This document shows, in pieces, positions 9,656 to 47,432 of a stretch of DNA of 64,000 nucleotides. Location: positions 155,899 to 219,898 of the forward strand of contig DATJUT010000031.1 of assembly GCA_035502185.1 (NCBI GenBank), given 5' to 3'. Every line of letters begins with the position of its first letter. Position 1 is the stretch's first letter. Position numbers and translations under genes: made by a program. This stretch comes from Gemmatimonadales bacterium (lineage in GTDB: Bacteria; Gemmatimonadota; Gemmatimonadetes; Gemmatimonadales; JACORV01). The notes under the pieces were generated by a model. That model ran no database searches. It saw only the letters and a list, made by a program, of their open reading frames with translations, and was not told the DNA's origin.

Positions 9656-11300
9656 GCGCCTGCCGCATCTGCTGCACCTCGGCCAGGTAGGCGGCGAGGG
9701 AGGCGGCCTCGCGCGCGGCATCCCAGCCGAGCTCCCGTCCGAGCAGACCGGCCACCACCGGCGTCAGCTCCGTACCCTGGCTGGGATGCTGCCGAAACAG
9801 GTGAGTGCGGCGAATCATGACGTCGCTGACGGAGAGCGCCATCTCGCGCCGTGCCTGGTGGATCACCTCGGCGCGAAGGACCGGGACACCGGAGGCCAGC
9901 GGCTCCGCCAGGGGAGTGTCGCGGAAGGCCAGGTTGGCGACCGCCATCGCTTCCGTGCCGTAGGTGTCGACCAGGTGGCGCGCCGCGCCCTCGTCAAGTC
10001 GTTCCTTCACTAGCTCGCGAACCAGCAGCTCGAGGTCGGCGACCTCGCCACCGGGCAAGGGCTCCTCGGCGGTCGGCGCGCTCGGGGCGATGACGCGGCC
10101 GTCGAGACGGTGGAGCTTCAACCCCACCAGATCCACCAATTCCGCCGCCATCGAGCGGTACGTCGTCAGTTTGCCGCCGGTGATCGTCACCAGGCCGGAC
10201 GCGCTCTCGAAGATCCGGTGCTCGCGCGGGACGGCGGCGGTCGTCCCCCCGCCCCCGTCCCTGAGCAGCGGGCGGAGGCCGGCCCAGGCCGCGAGGAGGT
10301 CCGGGGGAGCGAGTCGCGCGTCGGGGAACAGGGCGTTTGCCGAGCGCAGCAGGTAGGTGATGTCGTCGGCGGTCGGAGCGACCGCCCCGGGGTCCCCTTC
10401 GTAGTCCGTGTCGGTGGTGCCGAGCACGGTGACGTCGCCCCACGGCAGCACGAACATCACGCGGCCGTCGAGCGGGGAAGTCATCGTGAGCGCGCCCGCG
10501 TTACCGAGCCGGGCGCGCGGAACCGCGACATGGACCCCTTTGGTTGGCCGGAGCACGGGCTCGGCGCCAGGCTCGTCCAGCTGGCGCATCGCGTCGGTCC
10601 AAGGGCCCGTCGCGTTCACGGCCACGTGCGCCCGGACGGCGAAGTGCCGGCCGTCGATGACGTCCTCCACCACCACGCCCCGAAGCTGGCCCGCAGCCTT
10701 CTCGAGCGACTTCACCGCCGCGTAGCTCGCGACCATCGCGCCGCTGCGGCGCGCCGCGCGCACGTTGGCCAGGACCAGCCGGGCGTCGTCGCAGCAGGCG
10801 TCGTAGTACACGGCGCCCCCCAGCAGGTCCTTGCTCCGCAGCTGCGGCTCGGCCTTGCGGACGCCGCGTCGCGACAGCGTCCGATGCATGCGCACGTTCC
10901 GGAACACCGACAGCAGGTCGTACAGCCACAGGCCGGCGGCCAGCCGGCCGCGGGTCACCCGGCCGCCGGCGTGGATCGGGAAGAGGAACGGCATCGGCCG
11001 CACGAGATGCGGCGCGATCCGTAACAGGACGCGGCGCTCGCGGCTCGCTTCGAACACCAGCCGGAGCCAGCCGTGCTCCAGATAGCGCAGCCCGCCGTGC
11101 ACGAGGCGAGACGAGCGACTGGACGTGCCGCTCCCGAAATCGCCGGCCTCGAGCAGGGCCGTGCGGATTCCGCGCCGGGCGGCGTCCCGCGCGATGCCGG
11201 CGCCGGTGATGCCCCCGCCGATCACCAGCAGGTCGGGCGGCGTCGCGGCCATCGCGTCGAGATCCGCGCGGCGGGTCTCAGCGGAGAACGCCGAGTCCAT
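9633..11300 (-). CDS. glpD: FAD-dependent glycerol-3-phosphate dehydrogenase
   Basis: Dinucleotide fold DLLVIGGGITGAGIARDAARRG and GTSSRSSRLVHGGLRYLE, with a GlpD-like C-terminal domain. ATG 11300 (MDSAFSAE) is preferred over ORF-track 11366. Confidence 0.92.
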   Translation of the reverse strand: MDSAFSAETRRADLDAMAATPPDLLVIGGGITGAGIARDAARRGIRTALLEAGDFGSGTSSRSSRLVHGGLRYLEHGWLRLVFEASRERRVLLRIAPHLVRPMPFLFPIHAGGRVTRGRLAAGLWLYDLLSVFRNVRMHRTLSRRGVRKAEPQLRSKDLLGGAVYYDACCDDARLVLANVRAARRSGAMVASYAAVKSLEKAAGQLRGVVVEDVIDGRHFAVRAHVAVNATGPWTDAMRQLDEPGAEPVLRPTKGVHVAVPRARLGNAGALTMTSPLDGRVMFVLPWGDVTVLGTTDTDYEGDPGAVAPTADDITYLLRSANALFPDARLAPPDLLAAWAGLRPLLRDGGGGTTAAVPREHRIFESASGLVTITGGKLTTYRSMAAELVDLVGLKLHRLDGRVIAPSAPTAEEPLPGGEVADLELLVRELVKERLDEGAARHLVDTYGTEAMAVANLAFRDTPLAEPLASGVPVLRAEVIHQARREMALSVSDVMIRRTHLFRQHPSQGTELTPVVAGLLGRELGWDAAREAASLAAYLAEVQQMRQALTPPPAT

Positions 11301-38500: not shown

Positions 38501-38611
38501 GGCGGTGGATCCCGGAAGGGGGGACCAGGAGCCCGATCCGATCAGCCGGGATGGGTTTCGAAACTAAGCGGGTGTGTCGGCGGGGACCACCCCGATCGAG
38601 CGAGGAAGCGA

Positions 38612-38645
38612 CGAGCCCCGTCCCGATGTTCCGGGACGGGGCTCG
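38612..38645 (-). terminator. 14-bp GC-rich hairpin downstream of the OmpA-family gene
   Basis: CGAGCCCCGTCCCG (38612-38625) pairs perfectly with CGGGACGGGGCTCG (38632-38645) across a 6-nt loop. It starts 26 nt after the stop at 38671. There is no clear U-tract. Confidence 0.55.
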
Positions 38646-38670
38646 CCGGTGCCGATCTACGCGCGACGAA

Positions 38671-40500
38671 CTACTGCAGCCGCTTGATTTCGACGCGCAT
38701 GTTCTGGGCGCGGCCCGCGGCCGTCTTGTTGCTGGCCACAGGATGCGCCGCGCCGTAGCCGACCGCCGTCAACGAGGCGGCGGGGACGCCCTTGCTCACC
38801 AGATACGTCACTACGGCCCTCGCGCGCTGCTGAGAGAGGCGCAGGTTGCGCGCGGCGGTGCCGACGCTGCTGGTGTAGCCCGCGACTTCCCACTTCGCGT
38901 TCGAGGTCGCCTGGATGGCGATCGCGATCTTGTCGAGGTCCGCCATTGCCGCCGGCAGCAGCACCGCGCGGTTCGGACGGAAGGTCACGTTCTTCAGGAT
39001 CATGGCCGCGCCCGCGGTGGGCAGCGTCGGCAACTCGACGGGCGGAGCACCCTTCGGAGCGATGACGACGGTGACCGTCGCGCTCCCGCTCTTCCCGTCC
39101 ACGGCGGCGGTGACGTGCGCCGCGCCGTTCGCCACGCCCGTCGCCAGCCCGGTCGGGCTCACGGTGGCCACACCCGTCGCATCACTGGTCCAGGTGAAGG
39201 TCCTGGCTGCGATCGGCCGGCCGTTGGCATCCATCGCCTGCGCCGAGAGCTGCGCCGTGGCGCCGGCGGCGGAAATCTGAGCGGTCGCTGGAGTGACCGC
39301 GACCGTCGCGGTCGTCTGAGCAACCGTGACGTTCACCGAGCCGCTCTTGCTGCCGGACGTCGCCGTGATCCGGGCCGTACCGTTGGCCACGGCCGTTACG
39401 ACGCCCGCCGCATCCACCGTCGCCACCTTCGTATCGCTGCTGGCCCAGGTGAACGTGGGAGCGTTGAGCGGGTTGTTGTTGGCGTCACGCGCGGCTGCGG
39501 TGAACGCCTGGGTGGCGCCGATCGCGTTGATCGTCGCCATCGCCGGAGTCACCGCCACGGCCGCGGCCGTCCGGGCGACGGTCACGTTCGTCGTCCCCGT
39601 GACGCCCTCGCTCGTGGCGCTGATCGTCGCGGCGCCGTCACGCACCGCTGTCACCACGCCGGCGGCGGAGACCGTCACGGCGGGGTTGTTGCTCGTCCAG
39701 CGGATGACCTTGCCGGTCATCGGGTTGCCCTTCTGATCGAGCGCCCGGGCCGCGAGCTGCTGGGTCTGGCCGAGCGACGTCAGCGTGGCCACGCCAGGCG
39801 TCACGTTGACGCGGGTCAGGACCTTGCGGCCGCCGAGGAACCAGGACAGGCCGACGGTGGCGGCGCCGGTCGGGATGGACCCGATGGCGGACTCCTTGAA
39901 GTTCTCGTACCCGATCCGGCCCTCGATCCGGAGCGCCACGGCCTCGCCGATCATGTGGCGGACGCCGACGCCGACATGGCCGCCGTACTGGGCCGTGACG
40001 TGGGTGCCGCTGGCGGCGGCGTAGGTGCCGCTGGCGCCGACGGTCAGGAACGGGCTGGTGACCTTGTTGATGTCCGGCGTCCAGGTGAGGGCCGCGAAGG
40101 GCTGGACGAACGTCAGGGACGGCGTCGCGCCCGACGAGGAGGCGAAGCCGACACCCGAGCCGACGCTGATGTCCCAGCTCTTGTTCAGGTGGTACCCCAG
40201 CCGGAGCGCGCCGCCGGGCACGACCTGGCTAGCAGGGCTGAGCTTCTTGTCGAAGTACAGAATGCCGGCGCCCGCGCTCAACTCCCAGCTGCCTTCGCGG
40301 TGAGCGGCGGGCATGGCGGGCTTGACTACCGGTGCGGGCGCCGGATGCTGCGCGGGCGCGGCCGCAGGGCGCTGAGCCGGCTGCTGCGCTGGAGGCTTGG
40401 CGGGCTGAGCCGGTGGCTGCGCCGGGCGTTGCTGGGCGAGCAGCAGCGTCGGCACGAACGCGGCCAACGCTCCTGCGGCCAACAGAACTCGCTTACCCAT
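38671..40500 (-). CDS. OmpA-family outer membrane protein: signal peptide, PAQ-rich linker, beta-barrel, 3x Big_2, OmpA C-terminal domain
   Basis: ATG 40500 (MGKRVLLAAGALAAFVPTLLLAQQ). Alternating barrel-like strands, three bacterial Ig-like group 2 repeats, and the C-terminal peptidoglycan-binding motif NVTFRPNRAVL...GYTSSVGTAARNLRLSQQRA...VGYGAAHPVASN. Confidence 0.88.
   Translation of the reverse strand: MGKRVLLAAGALAAFVPTLLLAQQRPAQPPAQPAKPPAQQPAQRPAAAPAQHPAPAPVVKPAMPAAHREGSWELSAGAGILYFDKKLSPASQVVPGGALRLGYHLNKSWDISVGSGVGFASSSGATPSLTFVQPFAALTWTPDINKVTSPFLTVGASGTYAAASGTHVTAQYGGHVGVGVRHMIGEAVALRIEGRIGYENFKESAIGSIPTGAATVGLSWFLGGRKVLTRVNVTPGVATLTSLGQTQQLAARALDQKGNPMTGKVIRWTSNNPAVTVSAAGVVTAVRDGAATISATSEGVTGTTNVTVARTAAAVAVTPAMATINAIGATQAFTAAARDANNNPLNAPTFTWASSDTKVATVDAAGVVTAVANGTARITATSGSKSGSVNVTVAQTTATVAVTPATAQISAAGATAQLSAQAMDANGRPIAARTFTWTSDATGVATVSPTGLATGVANGAAHVTAAVDGKSGSATVTVVIAPKGAPPVELPTLPTAGAAMILKNVTFRPNRAVLLPAAMADLDKIAIAIQATSNAKWEVAGYTSSVGTAARNLRLSQQRARAVVTYLVSKGVPAASLTAVGYGAAHPVASNKTAAGRAQNMRVEIKRLQ
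39064..39810 (-). repeat. Three tandem Big_2 (bacterial Ig-like) coding repeats of about 79-85 codons
   Basis: Protein repeats VxVTPxxAxxxxxGxTxQxxAxAxDxxGxP...FTWxSSxxxVATV...GxxTxVxxGxAxxTAT...SGSxxVTV at residues 231-309, 316-394 and 401-479. Confidence 0.8.
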
Positions 40501-40767
40501 GATGCATCTCCTAGCGGAAGTTTGTCCGGGCCGCGCCAGGCGCTCGCATGTCGCGAGCCCAAGAGTGCCCCGAGACTCAGCGTGGGCGACGACCGAAGGC
40601 GATGGCGCGTGGAGCGCCGCTGCAGCGAGGACCTTCGCCGTCGCTCCGAGGAACGACAAACGCGGTCGCCACGGCCTCGACCTTGCGTGCGCGGGGTCTG
40701 GCGGCCGCCGGAGTCCCGACAATCTTGGCGCGTCGGCTGGGGATGCGCAACCCCGAGGCTCCGGCCA

Positions 40768-42867
40768 CTACCCCTGGACGAATCGGGTCGCCGCGCCCAG
40801 GCGTTCCGCGCTCGCCGAAAGCTCCAGGGCGCTCTGGGACAGGTCCTCGATGGCTTTGAGCTGCTCGGCGGCGGCGGCGGCCACCACCTTGGCCTCGCTG
40901 GCGGAGGCGGACGCGGCCGCCTTGACCTCCGACAGCACCGCTTGCATTTCGGCGGTCCGCTCGGCGTTGCGGCGCGGAAACTCCACCATCCGCTTCGACA
41001 GGTGGGCGAGCGTCTCCGCCGCCCGCACGATGCCCTCCAGCTCGGCGATCCACCGGCTGGCCGCGGCGGTGACGTCGCCGATCTCCCGGCGCATCTGCTC
41101 CAGCAGCTGCGCCGCGCGATCGATGACGCGGCGGGTCTCGCCCGTGGTCTGGCCCGCCTGTTTCGCCTCCTTCGCGCTCTCCTCCGCGAGCCGGCGCACC
41201 TCGTCGGCCACGACCGCGAACCCGGCGCCGTGCTGTCCCGCCCGCGCTGCCTCGATCGTGGCGTTGAGCGCCAGCATGTTGGTCTGGCTGGCGATGGCGC
41301 CGATGGTCTCGGCGAACCGTACCACCTGCTCGGAGGCCTCACGGAGCCGGCCGACCTCGGCCACGCTCTGCTCGACGGTGCTGCCGATGCGCTCGAGGTT
41401 GGCCTTGGTGGCGGCCGTGGCCGAGCGCACGGCCTGGGCCGCCCGCTCCATCTCCTGGGCGGACCGATGCGTCTCCTCCCCCGCCAGGGCCGCGTCGTGG
41501 GCCGCGGCTCTCAGGTCGACCATCGCCGCCTCGGCCCGCGCCACGTGTTCCGTGGCGTTCGCGGCGCCCCCCTCCGCGCCGTGCGCCGCCGCGGCGACCT
41601 CCTCCGAGCTGGCGTGGATCTCCTGGCTCGTGGCCGTCACGTGCTCCACGTAGCCGGCCGTCTGCTGCGAGGACTCGACCAGAGGCTCGAGGACTCCGTG
41701 CACTGCCAGGGCCAGCGCGAGCTGCGGCGCCACCAGGTTCAGGATGTCGGCGTCCGCCCCGCGGTAGATGTCGCCATCGGCGTGGCGGATGCTCCAGGCG
41801 CCGACGAGGTTGTCGCCCTGGTACAGGGGGACCAGGATCTCGGAGCCGGCCGCGTCCTCGCCGCCCTCCGGTTGATGCCCCAATTCGGCGGACACAACGG
41901 GCTTGCGGCGCCGCAGGGCCTCCGCCACCAGACCGCGGTCGCCGGGAATGCGGTAGCCCGGGGCGCGCTCGGGCGCGGTGTCGACGACCTGCACAAGCTC
42001 CTGTCGGTCCGCGTCCCAGCGGGCCACGCCCATATGATCCCAGGGCACCAGGCGCCGCGTGAGGTCCCGAATGACGCCGAAGCTCCGCACGAGATTGACA
42101 TCGCTGGCGATGGCTCGCGCCAGCCGCTCGACCAGTCCCAGTTCGTCCGCGCGGATTCCCTTGTGCAGGAGCCAGTGGGCGAGCACCAGCAGGCCGATCA
42201 GCACGAGGCAGACGACCACGGCCAGCAGCGCCGGGATGTCCGCTTCCACGACTTCGACCCAGGCGAGCGCCAGGGCGGCGCTCAGAAGGTAGACGACGGA
42301 CTCCCAGCGCAGCGTCAGCCGCGCGTCCACCCAGGCCAAGCTCTCCGACAGCGCCAGTTCCGCGTAGAACGTGCCGTTCACGACCAGCGGAAGCCCCACC
42401 GCGAGGAACGCGAGCGGGGGGACGTTCGGTGCAGCGAGCGCGCCGGCCCCGTAGACGCCACCCAGGCGCTCGTAGATGACGCCCACGACGGCGGCACCGA
42501 ACGTGAGGTGGCTCGCGTTGGCCACGGCGGCACGGAGCTGCAGCCGGCGCAGCGGAAGGTCGCCGGCCAGCATGCCCAGCGGCGAAACCAGAACGCCCCA
42601 GCCCCAACCGCGGTGCAGGATGGCGAACAGCACCACACCCAGGACGAAGGACGAAAACCCCTTGCCGGGAAGCGCGAGGCCGTAGCGCCGGGTGGCCGCC
42701 GCGAAGCTGACCAGAAAGACGTACTCGAGAACCGGGAACGGGTGGGGGAAGTCCCCGGTGAGGATCACGTAGGCGAGCGCGGCGAGGGCGAACAGATCGA
42801 CGCCGACGCGGAGGACCTGCTCGGCGCTGCGCGAGTGCCTGGCTGTCTGCTCGTCGCTCAAGTCCAT
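40768..42867 (-). CDS. Methyl-accepting chemotaxis protein-like receptor: polytopic N-terminal membrane domain, GAF-like domain, MCP signalling domain
   Basis: About 8 N-terminal helices and a central GAF-like region ([17 protein letters not shown]). Conserved MCP hairpin tip [46 protein letters not shown] lies before ATG 42867. Confidence 0.9.
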
Positions 42868-42887
42868 GCCTCCCGTGAGCCCATCGT

Positions 42888-42905
42888 ACTGACTGATCAG
42901 TCAGT
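42888..42905. promoter_or_regulatory. Perfect 18-bp palindrome ACTGACTGATCAGTCAGT (copy 1), candidate TetR operator
   Basis: Read directly from the sequence and identical to 47448-47465. It lies 20 nt upstream of the MCP-like ATG, in the divergent region shared with the SelW-like/pfk unit. Confidence 0.6.
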
Positions 42906-43074
42906 CACTGCCGCTCGCCCGCGGCAGGCCTGGAGGCCTGCCTGGGGCGCGGGTCACCGTCGCGGCCTCGGAGCGTGCCCACGGTATGATCTCTTGGCTC
43001 GAACGTCAAGCAGCGGACTGTCGCGCCGGCACGCGGCGTGCTACAGTCCGTCGCGGCATTGACCGGGAGGCCAG

Positions 43075-43302
43075 GTGAAGATCAGCATCGAATACTGCGT
43101 CGTTTGACACTACGAATCGCGGGCCGCCGGTCTGGCGGCCGAGATTCGGCGTACTTTCCCCCCCGCCGAGGTGGTCATGATGCCATCCTCCGGCGGCGTA
43201 TTCGAGGTCATGGTGGACGGCAAGCTCGTCTTCTCCAAGAAGGCGTTGAACCGACACGCGGAGCCGGGTGAGGTCCTGGAACTGATCCGCCAGTGCGCAT
43301 AG
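43075..43302 (+). CDS. SelW/Rdx-family thioredoxin-fold protein with in-frame TGA (43105-43107) at the CxxU position; probable selenoprotein
   Basis: GGGAGG at 43065-43070, then GTG 43075. Translation: VKISIEYCVV-U-HYESRAAGLAAEIRRTFPPAEVVMMPSSGGVFEVMVDGKLVFSKKALNRHAEPGEVLELIRQCA. Family-like sequence lies on both sides of the TGA. A SECIS-like hairpin follows. The stop overlaps the pfk start. Confidence 0.72.
43114..43147 (+). ncRNA. Bacterial SECIS-like stem-loop within the SelW-like mRNA
   Basis: Lower stem GAAUC/GAUUC (43114-43118 / 43143-43147), two further pairs (C43120-G43141 and G43122-C43140), and upper stem GCCGCC/GGCGGC (43123-43128 / 43134-43139). The apical loop is GGUCU (43129-43133). 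The loop G lies 24 nt from the U of UGA. Confidence 0.6.
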
Positions 43303-44375
43303 CGCTTTCCACCGGCGGCGGCGACGCGCCGGGCCTCAACGCGGTCATCCGGGGCGCGGTGCTCTCGGCCGTGCACCGGGGCTGGGCCGTGTACGGGATT
43401 CAGCGCGGCTTCGGCGGGTTGTTGGGGCAGGACCGGGTCGTGGCCCTGGGCCCCGACGAGGTGCGCGGCATCACGCACGTCGGTGGGACTATTCTCGGCA
43501 CCACCAACCGCGACAGTCCGTTCAAGTACCCGGTCCGCCAGCCGGATGGCACGATGAAGGAGGTCGACCGCTCCGATGAGCTGCTGGCGGCGTTTCGCGC
43601 GCACGGGTTCGATGCCCTGATCACCATCGGGGGTGACGGCAGCCTCAACATCGCCCAACAACTGTATGCGAAGGGCCTGCCGGTCGTCGGTGTCCCCAAG
43701 ACGATCGACAACGACGTCGGCGGGACGCAGGCCACCTTCGGGTTCGATACCGCGGTGTCGACGGCGACCGACGCGCTGGACAAGGTGCATTCGACCGCCG
43801 AGAGCCACAGTCGGGTGATGGTGGTCGAGGTGATGGGACGGTACGCCGGCTGGATCGCGCTGCATTCCGGCGTGTCCGGCAGCGCGGACGTGATCCTGAT
43901 TCCGGAGATTCCGTTCGACATCGAGAGCGTCTGTCGAAAGGTGAAGGAGCGCGAAGCACGGGGCCGGCGGTTCAGCATCGTGGTCGTCGCCGAGGGAGCG
44001 CTGCCCAAGGGTGGCTCGCGGGCCCTCAAGGGGCCGGCGGCGGCCGGAGGTGGAATGGAGCGGCTCGGCGGGATCGGCGAGCTGGTGGCGCGCGAGATCG
44101 AGCAGCGGACCGGCAAGGAGACACGGTCGCTGACGCTCGGTCACCTGCAGCGGGGCGGCACGCCGACCACGTTCGACCGCCTCCTGGCCCTGCGCTTCGG
44201 TGCCGCGGCGGTCCGTTGCGTCGCCAACAAGGTATTCGGCGTCATGGTCGCCTACCTGCCGCCCACGGTCGGGTATGTGCCCCTCAAGGACGCCCTGTCA
44301 CAGCCCAAGGTCGTACCCTTGGACTCCGATACGGTGTCCACGGCGCGCGAACTCGGCATCTGCCTGGGTGACTGA
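43293..44375 (+). CDS. pfk: 6-phosphofructokinase (ATP- or PPi-dependent)
   Basis: GGGDAPGLNAVIRG, TIGGDGSLNIA, PKTIDNDV, and VEVMGRYAGWIA motifs. Confidence 0.93.
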   Translation: MRIALSTGGGDAPGLNAVIRGAVLSAVHRGWAVYGIQRGFGGLLGQDRVVALGPDEVRGITHVGGTILGTTNRDSPFKYPVRQPDGTMKEVDRSDELLAAFRAHGFDALITIGGDGSLNIAQQLYAKGLPVVGVPKTIDNDVGGTQATFGFDTAVSTATDALDKVHSTAESHSRVMVVEVMGRYAGWIALHSGVSGSADVILIPEIPFDIESVCRKVKEREARGRRFSIVVVAEGALPKGGSRALKGPAAAGGGMERLGGIGELVAREIEQRTGKETRSLTLGHLQRGGTPTTFDRLLALRFGAAAVRCVANKVFGVMVAYLPPTVGYVPLKDALSQPKVVPLDSDTVSTARELGICLGD

Positions 44376-44380
44376 GGCCG

Positions 44381-46933
44381 GTGCACCCCAGCCGAGACCA
44401 CTACCTCCCACCTGACCGCCAAGCCTTCCACGCCGCGAGGCCGCCCACCGGCCGCGTGGTGGTCATCGCGCCGACGCGCGCCGCCTGCGAGACGATCGAA
44501 ATGGCGATGGGCCTGGACATCCACACCGTGCTCGAGGCCGAGCATGGCGCGGAGATCGAGGCGCTCGCGGGTGACGGCGGGGGTTTCGGAATCGTGGCGG
44601 GCACGGGCACGGGCAAGACGCTTGGCATCCGCCGGATCGCTCGAGCCATCCTCGGCGTTCCCCTGAGGGTCGGCGTCGTCAACCGCGAACGGGAGGCGAC
44701 GCCCGAGACGCCGTCGTGGAACCTCGTGATCGTGACCACGGGGATCGCGCGTCGCTGGTTCCAGGCGGGCGTGATCACGGGCGCCGACGTCGTCGTGGTG
44801 GACGAGATCCACCAGACCTCGGCCGAGCTGGAATTGTGCCTGGCGCTGGGCAAGCGGGCCGGCTGCCGGTTCATCTGGCTGTCGGCTACGGTGGACCCGG
44901 CGTTCTACGCCGGCTACCTCGATTCGACGCGGGTCATCGAAACCCGTGCGTTCGACCCGGCGCGTGCCGCGCGGGTGCGGATCCAGCCCTCGACGGTCGC
45001 GGACTTCCTGGACTCGCGCTTTCTGCGCCGGGTGGTGCGCGAGCGGCGGGGGGTCGCGGTGTTCGTGCCGACCCGGGCGGAGGTGGAGGCGGTTGCCGGG
45101 GCGGTGGGTGCCCAGTGGCCGGCCCTCACGACCGCGTTCTACCACGGCGGAGAGCCGATCCGGGTCATCCGGCCGTTCCTCGAGGGCCTCGCGCCGAAGC
45201 CGTACCTGTTGGCGATGACGGCTGCCGGGCAATCGGCGCTGAACATCGCGGGGCTCGATACCGTGGTCATACTGGACGCGCGCTACCAGAACGTGGTGGA
45301 ACGCGGCCGCAACGTGCTGACCCGGACGCCGCTCGCCGCGAACGACATTCTGCAGATGGCGGGCCGCGTGCACGGCCGTGTCCGGGGCGGCGAGGTGTGG
45401 ATCCTCAGCGATCGGGACCTGGCGTTCGACCGGCTGACGCCGGGCCCTCCGGAGTTCCAGCTCGCGGGTGACGTGGAGCGCGTGGCGATGACGTGCGCCG
45501 CGCTCGGCGTGAACGCCACGGACCTCGAGCTACCCGTGCCGCTGGACCGGACGGCGTACGCGGCCGCCCTCCGGCGATTGGAGGGCCGCGGCATCGTCGC
45601 GGACGGCCGGCTCACGGTCTACGGCGCGGAAGTCGAGGCATTGCCGGTGGAGCGGCCCTGGGCGGAGCTGCTCCTCCACGCGGACGCGGACCTGGTGCCG
45701 GCGGTGGCGGCGTGTTCCGGCGTCGAGTCGCTGCACCGGATGACGCGCGAGGAACGGATGCTGCGCGGCGTGATCGTGCCCGGCTCCGATCACCTGACGG
45801 TCTACAACATCTTCGCCGAGGCCGTCAATCACCACGCGGCCGTCAGCGAGGTCTACGGGCTGGCGCGGCACGTCTTCGCGGACACGGTGGCGGAATGGGC
45901 CGACCGACGCGGGGTGCTGGTGAAGGCCGTCGAGGATGCGGCACTCGGCGTGGCGTCGGTGTACCGCGCGCTCGAGATGACCCTCCCCGCCACCGTGCCC
46001 TACGCGGACGAGCGCATGCTGCGGCGCTTCCAGGACCTGATCGCGCGGATCATGCCGTTCGACCTGGTGGTCGACGAGGAGACGGCGGCCGGCGAGCCGG
46101 TGCGCGTCTCGCGCGGCTCCGTTTGCGGAGCCTGGGGCGGCGTGGCCGGGACCATTCGCTACTTTGCCGACCGGTTCGGCGTCCCGCGCGCGGCCATCGA
46201 GGGCACGCAACTGCCGTACGACCTGATGCGAAGCTACGCCCGCGTCCTCGCTCCCGAAGTGCAGTACGACGCCCGGCATCGGCGGCTGCCCCTGGTGGCG
46301 GTGCGTCGCCGCAACTATCACGGCTTCGAGCTCGAGCGCGACGTCGAGCCGCTGGAGACGATCCCTGCGGAGCTCGCCGGGCCCGCGCGGGCCGCACTGG
46401 TCGAGGCCCTGATGACGGGCGTGGCCCACCACCGGCAAGCCCGCACGCTCCGCCACACGCTGGACCTCCTCGGGGAGCTGTGGCGACGCTCGGGCGGGAA
46501 GTTGAGCGGCGTCGACGGCTCGGTGGTGCGGGCCGCCCTGGGCCGCCGGCTGGAGCGCCTGGGTCGGTTCGAGGATTTCCTCGAGGCCGACCTCGGCCTG
46601 AGCGTCGACGAGTTCGTGTCAGCCGAGGCTCGACGGGAGCTCGAGGCCCTTCCCTCGTTCGTCACCCTCGCCGGCGAGAAGTGCCCACTGGACTACGAGT
46701 TGGACGGCGGCGAAGGCATCGTGCGCGTGCGGCTCCGGGAGCGCATCGCTCGAGCGCTGAGGGACGACGAACTGCCGCGGCTCGACCGGCGGGTCGCCTT
46801 CACGCTGGTGCGGGGGAAGAACACGGCGGTGAGGGCGGATTCTCTGACCGACCTGCGTCGGGTCCTCACCGGGCGCCCGCCGACTGAGCAAGCGCGACGA
46901 GGGCGAGCCAGAAAGCATCGTAGGAAGCTCTGA
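44381..46933 (+). CDS. DEAH-type (HrpA/HrpB-related) ATP-dependent helicase
   Basis: Motif I AGTGTGKT, Ib VTTGIA, II VVVDEIHQ, and III LSATVD, with a long helical C-terminal region. An alternative start is ATG 44501. The last 68 nt overlap the convergent TetR gene. Confidence 0.82.
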   Translation: MHPSRDHYLPPDRQAFHAARPPTGRVVVIAPTRAACETIEMAMGLDIHTVLEAEHGAEIEALAGDGGGFGIVAGTGTGKTLGIRRIARAILGVPLRVGVVNREREATPETPSWNLVIVTTGIARRWFQAGVITGADVVVVDEIHQTSAELELCLALGKRAGCRFIWLSATVDPAFYAGYLDSTRVIETRAFDPARAARVRIQPSTVADFLDSRFLRRVVRERRGVAVFVPTRAEVEAVAGAVGAQWPALTTAFYHGGEPIRVIRPFLEGLAPKPYLLAMTAAGQSALNIAGLDTVVILDARYQNVVERGRNVLTRTPLAANDILQMAGRVHGRVRGGEVWILSDRDLAFDRLTPGPPEFQLAGDVERVAMTCAALGVNATDLELPVPLDRTAYAAALRRLEGRGIVADGRLTVYGAEVEALPVERPWAELLLHADADLVPAVAACSGVESLHRMTREERMLRGVIVPGSDHLTVYNIFAEAVNHHAAVSEVYGLARHVFADTVAEWADRRGVLVKAVEDAALGVASVYRALEMTLPATVPYADERMLRRFQDLIARIMPFDLVVDEETAAGEPVRVSRGSVCGAWGGVAGTIRYFADRFGVPRAAIEGTQLPYDLMRSYARVLAPEVQYDARHRRLPLVAVRRRNYHGFELERDVEPLETIPAELAGPARAALVEALMTGVAHHRQARTLRHTLDLLGELWRRSGGKLSGVDGSVVRAALGRRLERLGRFEDFLEADLGLSVDEFVSAEARRELEALPSFVTLAGEKCPLDYELDGGEGIVRVRLRERIARALRDDELPRLDRRVAFTLVRGKNTAVRADSLTDLRRVLTGRPPTEQARRGRARKHRRKL

Positions 46934-47432
46934 CGTCCGCCGCGGGCGCGCCTGCTGCGAGCGCGGCGGCGGCGCCGTCCAAGAACGTGCACACGGTTGC
47001 GGCAAGATCCTCGGCCGGGATCCCCGGCCGGGCTCCGAGCCCGGCCAGCCACCGCGGCAGCGCCGCGCCGATCCGGACCCGCTCGCGGCCGCGCTCCGAG
47101 AGCAGGGCGGCCCGGGCCTCGTGATCCTGACGCCCGAGCAGGACGAGGTCGGACCCCGTCCGCTCCGCGTTGCCGCCGAGGCTCGACCACAGGGCGTCGA
47201 GGCCGGCCAGACCCGGCGCTCCGGCCAGCGCGGCTGCCCGGCCCTCGGCGCGCCGTCGTGCCAGAGCGGCGGCGGCGGCCGCCAGCAGTCTGCGCTTGGT
47301 GGCGAAGTGGTAGTGGACGAGCGCCGTCGAGACCCGGGCAGTCCTGGCGACGGCGCCGACTGTCACCCGGCCAAGTCCGGAGGACACCAGGCAGGCGCAG
47401 GCGGCGTCGACAATGGTATCGCGCGTGGCCAT
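46866..47432 (-). CDS. TetR/AcrR-family transcriptional regulator
   Basis: HTH IVDAACACLVSSGLGRVTVGAVARTARVSTALVHYHFATKRRL. Divergent from the EamA transporter gene. Confidence 0.85.
   Translation of the reverse strand: MATRDTIVDAACACLVSSGLGRVTVGAVARTARVSTALVHYHFATKRRLLAAAAAALARRRAEGRAAALAGAPGLAGLDALWSSLGGNAERTGSDLVLLGRQDHEARAALLSERGRERVRIGAALPRWLAGLGARPGIPAEDLAATVCTFLDGAAAALAAGAPAADVRASYDAFWLALVALAQSAGAR

What the first reader, a model, noticed from the sequence alone, without database searches (positions are those of the whole stretch)
43075..43302. Hidden SelW/Rdx-family gene with in-frame TGA at the CxxU position plus a SECIS-like hairpin
Seen in the sequence: GGGAGG (43065-43070) precedes GTG 43075. 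The frame reads VKISIEYCVV, then TGA (43105-43107), then HYESRAAGLAAEIRRTFPPAEVVMMPSSGGVFEVMVDGKLVFSKKALNRHAEPGEVLELIRQCA, then TAG (43300-43302). The ORF track shows nothing here because of the TGA. The two halves together reproduce the Rdx/SelW-like signature (IEYC-x-x-[C/U] near the N-terminus, RA..LA.E, GG.FEV..DG.L..SKK). The TGA falls exactly where family members carry the second redox Cys or Sec. Six nt after the TGA, a 13-bp interrupted hairpin spans 43114-43147. Its apical loop GGUCU lies 24 nt from the U of UGA. That is the geometry expected for bacterial SECIS elements, and the E. coli fdhF SECIS loop also carries GGUC. The gene overlaps the GTG start of pfk by 10 nt, so it heads the SelW-like/pfk/helicase transcription unit.
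Basis: partly seen in the sequence, partly recalled or inferred. Interest (0 to 1): 0.8.

Follow-up and report, generated by a model that had tools for sequence, protein, structure and literature searches.

The report
Unannotated SelW-like selenoprotein gene with SECIS
A small redox-protein gene that gene-callers cut in half at an in-frame TGA is a genuine selenocysteine-encoding SelW-like gene with its own recoding hairpin; the gene type has been known in bacteria since 2005, so this is a correct but fairly ordinary find.

Summary
GTG 43075 to TAG 43302 encodes a 75-residue Rdx/SelW-like protein with a C-V-V-U motif; the TGA at 43105-43107 sits at the second redox position. With U replaced by C, the protein matches Pfam Rdx end to end (E 5.5e-22) and passes NCBI's curated models for 'SelT/SelW/SelH family (seleno)protein'. 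All 88 related loci I read at first (8 metagenome contigs, 80 reference genomes from several phyla) keep the TGA. Conservation starts at the start codon, not at the downstream ATG. A 7-bp stem with loop GGUCU begins 21 nt after the TGA and meets every published bacterial SECIS criterion. It is paired in 90% of cells across 83 sequences, with compensatory changes at synonymous sites and in coupled amino-acid swaps. TGA is also the commonest ordinary stop in the window, so the recoding is local. The window comes from an unbinned soil-type Gemmatimonadales metagenome contig, so its own Sec machinery cannot be checked. SelA is present in more than 120 Gemmatimonadales MAG contigs, including two MAGs that also carry this gene. 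Bacterial SelW-like selenoproteins are well known, so novelty is modest. The tight, phylum-wide coupling to pfk is the only unexpected feature.

The parts
43065..43070 (+). Shine-Dalgarno-like GGGAGG, 4 nt before the start codon
   Evidence: Read directly from the sequence.
43075..43302 (+). SelW-like/Rdx selenoprotein gene: 75 codons plus the stop, with GTG start, Sec at codon 11 and TAG stop
   Evidence: Translation. Pfam Rdx E 5.5e-22 over the full profile. NCBIfam NF041051 92.1 bits against cutoff 88, and TIGR02174 64.6 against 34.2. Solved-structure relatives 2fa8 and 3dex align over residues 2-72. Orthologues are conserved from the start codon onward.
43096..43098 (+). TGC, the redox Cys (C8) of the CxxU motif
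   Evidence: Invariant in 81 of 81 aligned homologues. Aligns with the first Cys of CTQC in Atu0228, PDB 2fa8.
43105..43107 (+). In-frame TGA read as selenocysteine (U11)
   Evidence: TGA occupies this codon in 8 of 8 syntenic metagenome loci and 80 of 80 reference-genome loci. True Cys codons (TGT/TGC) sit at the same column in rarer homologues. TGA is the normal stop of 21 of 36 confident ORFs in the window.
43122..43140 (+). SECIS core: 7-bp upper stem (43122-43128 with 43134-43140) and apical loop GGUCU (43129-43133)
   Evidence: Fold. 90.2% of cells paired across 83 sequences, 4 of 7 pairs with double compensatory changes, covariation 0.283 against 0.129 shuffled (0 of 500) and at most 0.093 for slid controls. 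Third-position pairs far exceed the codon-usage expectation. [quoted passage not shown]
43113..43148 (+). Whole hairpin including the 6-bp lower stem (43113-43118 with 43143-43148); the lower stem is lineage-specific
   Evidence: MFE -25.8 kcal/mol. The helix containing the lower stem is paired in only 45% of cells across homologues.
43177..43302 (+). The 41-aa fragment that public gene-callers annotate in place of the full gene
   Evidence: Called gene 9885-10010 'Rdx' on the source contigs L098-L100. The closest database proteins are 41-58 aa fragments.
43293..44375 (+). pfk (phosphofructokinase, 360 aa); its GTG start overlaps the SelW-like gene by 10 nt, so it is the inferred second gene of the unit
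   Evidence: Pfam PFK E 7.5e-105. TIGR02483 444 bits. Directly downstream of the SelW-like gene in 38 of about 53 Gemmatimonadota loci, with a gap of -10 to +25 nt in 29 of the 38.
44381..46933 (+). Helicase-like gene (850 aa, weak DEAD/Helicase_C/HrpB similarity), 5 nt after the pfk stop; the inferred third gene of the unit
   Evidence: Weak Pfam and NCBIfam hits, all below the curated cutoffs. Conserved downstream in most Gemmatimonadota loci. No terminator-like site in 42700-47300.

Best explanation
The region 43075-43302 is an intact gene for a 75-residue SelW-like (Rdx-family) thiol/selenol oxidoreductase of a Gemmatimonadales bacterium. Translation starts at GTG 43075. When the ribosome reaches UGA 43105, the mRNA immediately downstream folds into a stem-loop: a 7-bp upper stem with apical loop GGUCU that starts 21 nt after the UGA. 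By analogy with E. coli fdhF, this stem-loop is bound by the Sec-specific elongation factor SelB carrying Sec-tRNA(Sec), so selenocysteine is inserted instead of termination. The product carries a C8-x-x-U11 redox centre at the position of the CxxC motif in Cys-type family members. The same stretch of RNA also encodes the conserved peptide R-A-A-G-L-A-A-E, so protein and RNA constraints are superimposed. The gene is probably co-transcribed and translationally coupled with pfk and a helicase-like gene. Shown here: the gene, its family, conservation of the UGA and its flanks, the conserved and covarying hairpin, local rather than global recoding, and SelA in related genomes. Inferred: SelB binding, actual Sec insertion, redox activity, and the operon.
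For: Family: Pfam Rdx full length, E 5.5e-22; the 10 residues before the TGA add about 22 bits. NCBIfam '(seleno)protein' models are passed. PDB relatives with CxxC align at the same place. UGA conservation: 8 of 8 syntenic metagenome loci and 80 of 80 reference-genome loci in Gemmatimonadota, Chloroflexota, Actinomycetota, Desulfobacterota, Acidobacteriota and others. Conservation begins exactly at the start codon. Sec/Cys interchange occurs at this column. SECIS: the upper stem is paired in 90% of cells, with GC/AU/CG/UA switches. Coupled amino-acid swaps A-A, V-T, S-E, S-G, V-M and I-M all keep pairing. Synonymous third-position pairs are 64/65, 48/48 and 49/60 paired against about 0.45 expected from the window's codon usage. 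70 of 83 elements pass all published bSECIS criteria against 11% of shuffles (criteria from PMC13188914). The loop sequence and geometry resemble E. coli fdhF. Local recoding: TGA terminates 21 of 36 confident window ORFs, including pfk and the helicase-like gene, and 26 of 38 SelW-like orthologues themselves end in TGA. Machinery in the clade: 120 of 120 probe hits are SelA, nearly all from Gemmatimonadales. SelA of MAG SMAG_U8647 scores 515 bits on TIGR00474, and that MAG and SD8036_maxbin2.bin.21_sub both also carry the TGA-containing orthologue. Literature: SelW-like CxxU proteins are established bacterial selenoproteins (PMC1088965, PMC1794560).
Against: No selA, selB, selD or tRNA-Sec lies in the window or in the reachable part of its 76-kb source contig. 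selB, selD and selC were not located in any Gemmatimonadales genome here. No Rfam family matches the hairpin. Four of the seven stem pairs follow automatically from the peptide A-A-G-L-A-A. Two Cys-type lineages still keep the hairpin (L095/L096, L097), so the hairpin is not strictly tied to the UGA. The binomial tests ignore relatedness among the sequences. There is no experimental evidence of selenium incorporation.
Confidence: 0.9

Rival explanations
1. The TGA is a real stop. The gene is a pseudogene, or only the short product from ATG 43177 or GTG 43171 (41-43 aa) is made, as the public gene-callers assume.
For: This is how generic gene-callers annotate it. TGA is the commonest stop codon in the window.
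Against: The TGA and the 10 codons before it are conserved in 88 of 88 loci across several phyla, and conservation starts at the upstream start codon. The 41-aa fragment lacks the CxxC/U redox motif and the first third of the Rdx domain. A decaying pseudogene would not keep a covarying hairpin.
Confidence: 0.02
2. The UGA is read through, but not as selenocysteine. For example, near-cognate Trp or Cys is inserted, or another recoding mechanism acts, because this particular organism may lack the Sec machinery.
For: The Sec machinery could not be found for this genome. Some database entries show W at this position.
Against: The one W entry whose DNA I read (P0002 in locus L091) has TGA at this codon, so the W there comes from translating TGA as Trp. 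TGA is not reassigned in this genome. The element downstream meets the SelB-type SECIS model. SelA, which has no known role outside Sec synthesis, is widespread in Gemmatimonadales and co-occurs with the gene in two MAGs. The family is a documented selenoprotein family (PMC1088965, PMC1794560).
Confidence: 0.04
3. The hairpin is a passive by-product of the conserved peptide RAAGLAAE in GC-rich codons and is not the functional recoding signal. Sec insertion, if it occurs, would then depend on something else.
For: Ala-Ala-Gly-Leu-Ala-Ala fixes pairs 19-35, 20-34, 22-32 and 23-31 automatically. Cys-type homologues L095/L096 and L097 still have the hairpin. Single-sequence folding is not exceptional in context.
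Against: The three pairs that depend on synonymous third positions are paired far above the codon-usage expectation: all three together in 34 of 42 sequences against 9% expected. Amino-acid replacements in the two arms are coupled so that pairing is kept. One Cys-type lineage (L092/L093) has lost the hairpin while keeping nearly the same peptide. Loop position and composition match the bSECIS model.
Confidence: 0.04

Closest known systems
Bacterial SelW-like selenoproteins (Zhang, Fomenko and Gladyshev 2005, PMC1088965; Zhang et al. 2006, PMC1794560)
   Same: A small protein of about 75 aa with an N-terminal CxxU motif, Sec encoded by an in-frame UGA, a SECIS stem-loop directly downstream inside the ORF, and few Cys homologues in Sec-using organisms. 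This gene matches on all counts.
   Different: The published examples are from marine metagenomes, Deltaproteobacteria, Clostridia and Symbiobacterium. Neither the 2006 survey nor the 2026 review that I searched mentions Gemmatimonadota. The conserved coupling to pfk is not described there.
Cys-type Rdx-family proteins with solved structures (Atu0228 2fa8, SAV_2001 3dex, 2oka, 2ojl, 2obk, 2p0g)
   Same: Same domain. The CxxC motif aligns with C8-x-x-U11, and the GG.FEV..DG motif is shared.
   Different: They are longer (about 105 aa), use Cys rather than Sec, have no SECIS, and share only about 35-40% identity.
Eukaryotic selenoprotein W and Rdx12/MIEN1 (C17orf37, 2ljk)
   Same: Same Pfam family and the same CxxU/CxxC position.
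   Different: The eukaryotic SECIS lies in the 3' UTR and has a different structure (PMC1088965, Figure 7). Here the element is inside the ORF and of the bacterial type.
E. coli fdhF SECIS
   Same: A stem-loop immediately after the UGA, the apical loop motif GGUC, both mRNAs begin UGACAC, and the loop starts 22 nt (fdhF) or 25 nt (here) from the U of UGA.
   Different: The loop is one codon further away. The stem is a 7-bp GC-rich helix. No single bulged U is evident below the loop; instead there is a 3-nt/2-nt internal loop. SelB binding was not tested.

Membership tests
Rdx / SelT-SelW-SelH family (Pfam PF10262; NCBIfam TIGR02174, NF041051) | Profile-HMM match above the curated cutoffs over the whole domain | tested here: met
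   PF10262 78.2 bits (cutoff 22.6), profile positions 1-74 of 74. TIGR02174 64.6 bits (cutoff 34.2) and NF041051 92.1 bits (cutoff 88).
Rdx / SelT-SelW-SelH family (Pfam PF10262; NCBIfam TIGR02174, NF041051) | CxxC or CxxU redox motif near the N-terminus | tested here: met
   C8-V-V-U11. It aligns with CTQC of Atu0228 and SAV_2001. C8 and the TGA codon are invariant in the homologues.
Rdx / SelT-SelW-SelH family (Pfam PF10262; NCBIfam TIGR02174, NF041051) | Thioredoxin-like fold | not tested
   No structure prediction was run. The fold is inferred only from sequence similarity to solved family members (2fa8 E 1.6e-10 over residues 2-72).
Bacterial selenoprotein gene (SelB/SECIS-dependent UGA recoding) | In-frame UGA conserved among orthologues, with protein conservation on both sides and Cys at the same column in some homologues | tested here: met
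   88 of 88 loci have TGA. Conservation profile. TGT/TGC forms in L092, L093, L095, L096 and L097.
Bacterial selenoprotein gene (SelB/SECIS-dependent UGA recoding) | Downstream stem-loop meeting the bSECIS model: 3-9 nt loop, 4-16 bp upper stem, G in the first two loop positions, 16-37 nt spacing, MFE at most -7.5 kcal/mol (PMC13188914) | tested here: met
   Window: loop GGUCU, 7 bp, 21 nt spacing, -14.9 kcal/mol. 70 of 83 homologues pass against 189 of 1660 shuffles.
Bacterial selenoprotein gene (SelB/SECIS-dependent UGA recoding) | Evolutionary support for the RNA structure (covariation) | tested here: met
   Caveat: the sequences are related, and 4 of the 7 pairs are fixed by the peptide.
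Bacterial selenoprotein gene (SelB/SECIS-dependent UGA recoding) | selA, selB, selC and selD present in the same genome | not testable with these tools
   None is in the window or in the reachable part of the 76-kb unbinned source contig. Partial surrogate: SelA (TIGR00474, 515 bits) in MAG SMAG_U8647, and SelA in SD8036_maxbin2.bin.21_sub. Both MAGs also carry the TGA orthologue. selB, selC and selD were not located in the order.
Bacterial selenoprotein gene (SelB/SECIS-dependent UGA recoding) | UGA is otherwise a stop codon in the organism (no global reassignment) | tested here: met
   21 of 36 confident ORFs in the window end in TGA.
Bacterial selenoprotein gene (SelB/SECIS-dependent UGA recoding) | Selenium is actually incorporated (75Se labelling or mass spectrometry) | not testable with these tools
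   This needs an experiment.
E. coli fdhF-type SECIS | GGUC-type apical loop with G and U exposed, at a fixed distance from the UGA | tested here: met
   The loop GGUCU starts at nt 25; in fdhF the loop GGUC starts at nt 22. G26 is invariant in 83 sequences.
E. coli fdhF-type SECIS | Single bulged U below the loop (a feature recalled from the fdhF literature, not verified here) | tested here: not met
   The predicted fold has a 3-nt/2-nt internal loop below a continuous 7-bp stem and no bulged U. I therefore file the element under the general bSECIS model, not as an fdhF-type element.
Any Rfam RNA family | Covariance-model match | tested here: not met
   No hit at gathering score in the window, and no hit at E up to 10 in 43040-43320.

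The most novel reading that the evidence does not exclude
In Gemmatimonadota the SelW-like gene is translationally coupled to phosphofructokinase: the stop and start overlap or lie within 25 nt in most lineages. Ribosomes can reach the pfk start by coupling only if they first decode the UGA as Sec. Selenium supply, or Sec-decoding capacity, could therefore gate PFK synthesis, or the selenoprotein could act as a dedicated redox partner of PFK. Either would link selenium status to glycolytic flux.
Probability: 0.1. Interest if true: 0.6.

Novelty: new member of a known kind. Interest (0 to 1): 0.3.

Why it matters
The gene itself is a textbook bacterial selenoprotein of a family described in 2005, so it changes little conceptually. 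It has three practical consequences. First, it documents Sec use, through a conserved UGA/SECIS gene plus SelA, in soil Gemmatimonadales. I found no mention of that phylum in the selenoproteome papers I searched. Second, public protein databases hold this family mostly as 41-65 aa fragments or with a residue other than C or U (mostly W) printed at the Sec position, and the one W entry checked is really TGA. That distorts family statistics and any Sec/Cys evolutionary analysis. Third, the hairpin is a clear example of overlapping protein and RNA constraints: the amino-acid pairs A-A, V-T, S-E and I-M covary because their codons must base-pair. The conserved coupling to pfk is unexplained and could be tested.

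Tried and rejected
- **False tRNA-Sec call.** ARAGORN called a 'tRNA-SeC' 7.6 kb from the SelW-like gene in L028. It lies inside a 396-aa IspH-like ORF and Rfam finds nothing there. I treat it as a false positive and do not use it.
- **Rfam.** No hit on the window or on the hairpin region.
- **Local search for sel genes.** tblastn with the real E. coli SelA, SelB and SelD against the window and the first 88 loci gave no hit. The extra 7 kb of the source contig also holds no sel genes.
- **First SECIS scoring.** My first version required a contiguous stem and passed only 58 of 83 elements. It wrongly rejected stems with one A.C mismatch and the Anaerolineae hairpins in a shifted register, so I replaced it with an RNAfold-based test.
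- **SelA search with a Longimicrobiales-type query.** A subtype-specific DNA probe solved this.
- **selB, selD and tRNA-Sec next to Gemmatimonadota selA.** None was found. The only selA-adjacent selB and tRNA-Sec was in an Acidobacteriota contig (L378).
- **Failed exact-protein look-ups.** Two look-ups failed, probably because GTG starts were translated as V.
- **Other Sec codons in the window.** A crude scan for other in-frame TGA codons with a coding signal on both sides found nothing convincing. It is insensitive: it narrowly missed the real gene too.
- **Promoters and terminators.** The sigma-70 promoter and intrinsic terminator scans found nothing in 42700-47300. This says little for this phylum.
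- **Cys forms as a control.** I expected them to give a clean 'no hairpin' result. The outcome was mixed, with one lineage lost and two kept.
- **Structure prediction.** Not run, because sequence-level homology to solved structures already covers the domain.

Full report
**What is in the sequence**

GGGAGG lies at 43065-43070 and GTG at 43075. The frame reads VKISIEYCVV, then TGA at 43105-43107, then 64 more codons to TAG at 43300-43302. The next gene starts at GTG 43293, a 10-nt overlap. The mechanical ORF list shows only a 43-aa piece of this frame (43171-43302).

The window comes from unbinned ENA metagenome contigs of about 76 kb (for example ERZ27256612 k141_149884). The public gene calls on them list a 41-aa 'Rdx' fragment starting at ATG 43177. 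The window is 71% GC. Its closest named relatives are Gemmatimonadales MAGs.

**What the protein is**

With the TGA codon written as Cys, the 75-residue protein matches Pfam Rdx (PF10262) over the entire profile (positions 1-74 of 74, 78.2 bits, E 5.5e-22). The part after the TGA alone scores 55.8 bits, so the ten residues before the TGA contribute real signal.

It also passes two curated NCBI models: NF041051 'SelT/SelW/SelH family (seleno)protein' (92.1 bits, cutoff 88) and TIGR02174 CXXU_selWTH (64.6 bits, cutoff 34.2).

Solved structures of Cys-type family members (Atu0228 2fa8, SAV_2001 3dex and others) align over residues 2-72. Their CTQC motif sits on C8-V-V-U11.

**Is the TGA conserved, and where does conservation start?**

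- The closest database proteins (83-98% identical) are all 41-58 aa fragments, which is what a gene-caller produces when it stops at TGA.
- Reading upstream in eight syntenic metagenome loci gives IEYCVV-TGA-HYE in every one.
- A scan of one genome per species returned 80 loci, about 55 from Gemmatimonadota. The rest come from Chloroflexota, Actinomycetota, Desulfobacterota, Acidobacteriota, Armatimonadota and others. All 80 have TGA at this codon.
- The majority residue is at most 22% in the ten codons before the start. It then rises to 98% (I5), 96% (Y7), 100% (C8), 100% (TGA) and 99% (Y13).
- The one database entry with W at this position whose DNA I read (P0002 in L091) is really TGA.
- Genuine Cys forms exist: TGT in L092, L093 and L097, and TGC in L095 and L096. 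One contig has CGA.

This pattern rules out both a pseudogene and a downstream start.

**Is TGA reassigned in this organism?**

No. Of 36 confident ORFs in the window, 21 end in TGA, including pfk and the helicase-like gene directly downstream. In addition, 26 of 38 SelW-like orthologues themselves terminate with TGA. The recoding must therefore depend on local context.

**The hairpin**

RNAfold places a 13-bp interrupted hairpin at 43113-43148, with loop GGUCU at 43129-43133 (-25.8 kcal/mol, z = -2.7). In a wider 81-nt context the energy is unremarkable (z = -0.3), so a single-sequence fold proves little in this GC-rich DNA.

The comparative data are what count. Because the element is coding, 83 sequences align without gaps from the TGA.
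- The upper stem (columns 18-24 with 30-36, that is 43122-43128 with 43134-43140) is paired in 90.2% of cells.
- Four of its seven pairs show double compensatory changes.
- Its covariation score is 0.283, against 0.129 for shuffles (0 of 500 reach it) and at most 0.093 when the partners are slid.
- The lower stem is not conserved; its helix is paired in only 45% of cells.

A caveat that I raised and then tested: the peptide A-A-G-L-A-A (GCN GCN GGN CUG GCN GCN) fixes four of the seven pairs by itself. The other three pairs depend on synonymous third positions.
- Those three are paired in 64 of 65, 48 of 48 and 49 of 60 eligible sequences, against about 0.45 expected from the window's own Ala and Arg codon usage.
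- All three are paired together in 34 of 42 sequences, against 9% expected. These tests ignore relatedness among the sequences.
- Where the amino acids change, they change in pairs that keep the base pairing: A-A (GCC/GCG), V-T (GTC/ACG), S-E (TCC/GAA), S-G, V-M and I-M.
- One Cys-type lineage (L092/L093) has lost the hairpin while keeping almost the same peptide. Two others keep it, so this natural control is mixed.

**Comparison with the published bacterial SECIS model**

The model (PMC13188914, Figure 2A) requires a 3-9 nt loop on a 4-16 bp upper stem, a G in one of the first two loop positions, 16-37 nt between the UGA and the loop, and MFE at most -7.5 kcal/mol. The window element has a 5-nt loop GGUCU, a 7-bp stem, 21-nt spacing and -14.9 kcal/mol, so it meets every criterion. 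70 of 83 homologues pass, against 189 of 1660 shuffled controls.

In E. coli fdhF, read from the genome record, the TGA is at codon 140 and the loop GGUC starts at nt 22. Here GGUCU starts at nt 25. No Rfam family matches.

**Sec machinery**

The window has no tRNA. Neither the window nor the first 88 loci contain SelA, SelB or SelD. The additional 7 kb of the source contig encodes NifS/NifU-like proteins, DJ-1, ABC transporters, ParA/ParB, an M23 peptidase and bactofilin, but no sel genes. For this genome the question is therefore not testable here.

An apparent tRNA-Sec in L028 was an ARAGORN false positive inside an IspH-like ORF.

For the clade the evidence is better:
- A probe for the SelA PLP-lysine motif found SelA in four Gemmatimonadota MAGs, at 44-48% identity to E. 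coli SelA.
Nearly all are from Gemmatimonadales or Gemmatimonadaceae MAGs, and all 120 are SelA by tblastn.
- Two of these assemblies also carry the TGA-containing SelW-like gene. They are DATFFX01 (SMAG_U8647: SelA in L331, SelW-like in L039) and JBOHSD01 (SD8036_maxbin2.bin.21_sub: L343 and L021).
- The SMAG_U8647 SelA is an intact 452-aa ORF scoring 515 bits on TIGR00474, against a cutoff of 268.

**Genomic context**

Upstream, on the other strand, lies a GAF-domain methyl-accepting chemotaxis protein (40768-42867). Downstream are pfk (43293-44375; Pfam PFK E 7.5e-105, TIGR02483 444 bits) and an 850-aa protein with weak helicase similarity (44381-46933).

In 38 of about 53 Gemmatimonadota loci, pfk follows the SelW-like gene directly. 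In 29 of those 38 the gap is -10 to +25 nt, and nine have a 4-nt start/stop overlap. The helicase-like gene follows in most. Outside the phylum the linkage is absent. No terminator-like or sigma-70-like site was found in 42700-47300, although that scan says little for this phylum. Co-transcription and translational coupling are therefore likely but inferred.

**What is known, and how new this is**

Bacterial SelW-like proteins with a CxxU motif were the most abundant selenoprotein family in the Sargasso Sea data (48 genes; PMC1088965). They occur in Geobacter sulfurreducens, Desulfotalea, Desulfotomaculum reducens, Alkaliphilus and Symbiobacterium, with Sec proposed as the ancestral state (PMC1794560). 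NCBI has a curated '(seleno)protein' model for the family.

This is therefore a new, unannotated member of a known kind. The papers I searched do not mention Gemmatimonadota. The biochemical function of the bacterial proteins remains unknown beyond a presumed thiol/selenol redox role.

**Verdict**

- Confidence that this is a real Sec-encoding SelW-like gene with a functional SECIS is about 0.9.
- Interest is about 0.3. The gene type is well known, and the only unexpected element is the phylum-wide coupling to pfk.

Noticed in passing
window 43293-43302; loci L009-L063: The SelW-like gene is immediately upstream of pfk in 38 of about 53 Gemmatimonadota genomes. The stop-to-start distance is -10 to +25 nt in 29 of these, and nine have a 4-nt NTGA overlap. 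The linkage is absent outside the phylum. No functional link between SelW-like proteins and phosphofructokinase is known to me.
   Followed up: partly
window 38551-43062 (+): A 1503-aa ATG ORF on the + strand runs antisense across two minus-strand genes that have Pfam support (Big_2/OmpA and GAF-MCP). It ends at TGA 43060-43062, just before the SelW-like start. It is most likely a GC-rich 'shadow' ORF and not a gene.
   Followed up: partly
L094 698-922 (NCBI GCA_033612675.1, 1-kb contig): A close homologue has CGA (Arg) at the Sec position (CVTRTYEP) while its SECIS hairpin is fully intact (7 of 7 pairs). This could be a recent inactivating mutation, a sequencing error or an odd variant. Database entries P0019 (R) and P0009 (L) at the same column were not checked at the DNA level.
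   Followed up: partly
L028 17840-17940: ARAGORN calls a 101-nt tRNA-SeC (anticodon TCA) inside a 396-aa IspH-like ORF, and Rfam finds no tRNA there. It is a false positive that could mislead automated checks for the Sec trait.
   Followed up: yes
Proteins P0002, P0003, P0004, P0007, P0012-P0014, P0016-P0018, P0021, P0077, P0118: Many 'full-length' database entries of this family print W at the Sec position. The one checked (P0002, locus L091) is TGA in the DNA and does not translate to the stored protein under table 11. These entries therefore probably come from gene calls made with a TGA=Trp code.
   Followed up: partly
L108, L175, L301-L418: Gemmatimonadales and Gemmatimonadaceae carry a distinct SelA subtype with signatures VHRSNFEQxGFVA and LYDVGxGLL. 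Its two members compared here (L108, L175) are 67% identical to each other and L108 is at most 57% identical to the SelA of Longimicrobiales and other phyla. selB is not adjacent to it in the 8-kb loci.
   Followed up: partly
window 44381-46933 (+): An 850-aa protein conserved downstream of pfk across Gemmatimonadota has only sub-threshold similarity to DEAD/Helicase_C and HrpB (50 bits against a cutoff of 546). Public calls list no Pfam domain for it. It is a divergent helicase-like protein of unknown role.
   Followed up: no
L067, L068, L076, L077, L083, L086, L087 (Anaerolineae/Chloroflexota loci), TGA + 14 to + 35: In these lineages the SECIS hairpin sits in a shifted register, with the loop about 17-18 nt after the UGA and sequences like GGGCC-GUGAG-CCUGA, instead of the Gemmatimonadales register of 21-22 nt. 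The recoding element has moved while the protein motif stayed in place.
   Followed up: partly
L420 1-7200 (source contig, left of the window): ParA, ParB, an M23 peptidase and bactofilin genes lie just upstream of the window, next to a NifS/NifU pair. A parAB cluster often lies near a chromosomal origin, but this was not examined.
   Followed up: no
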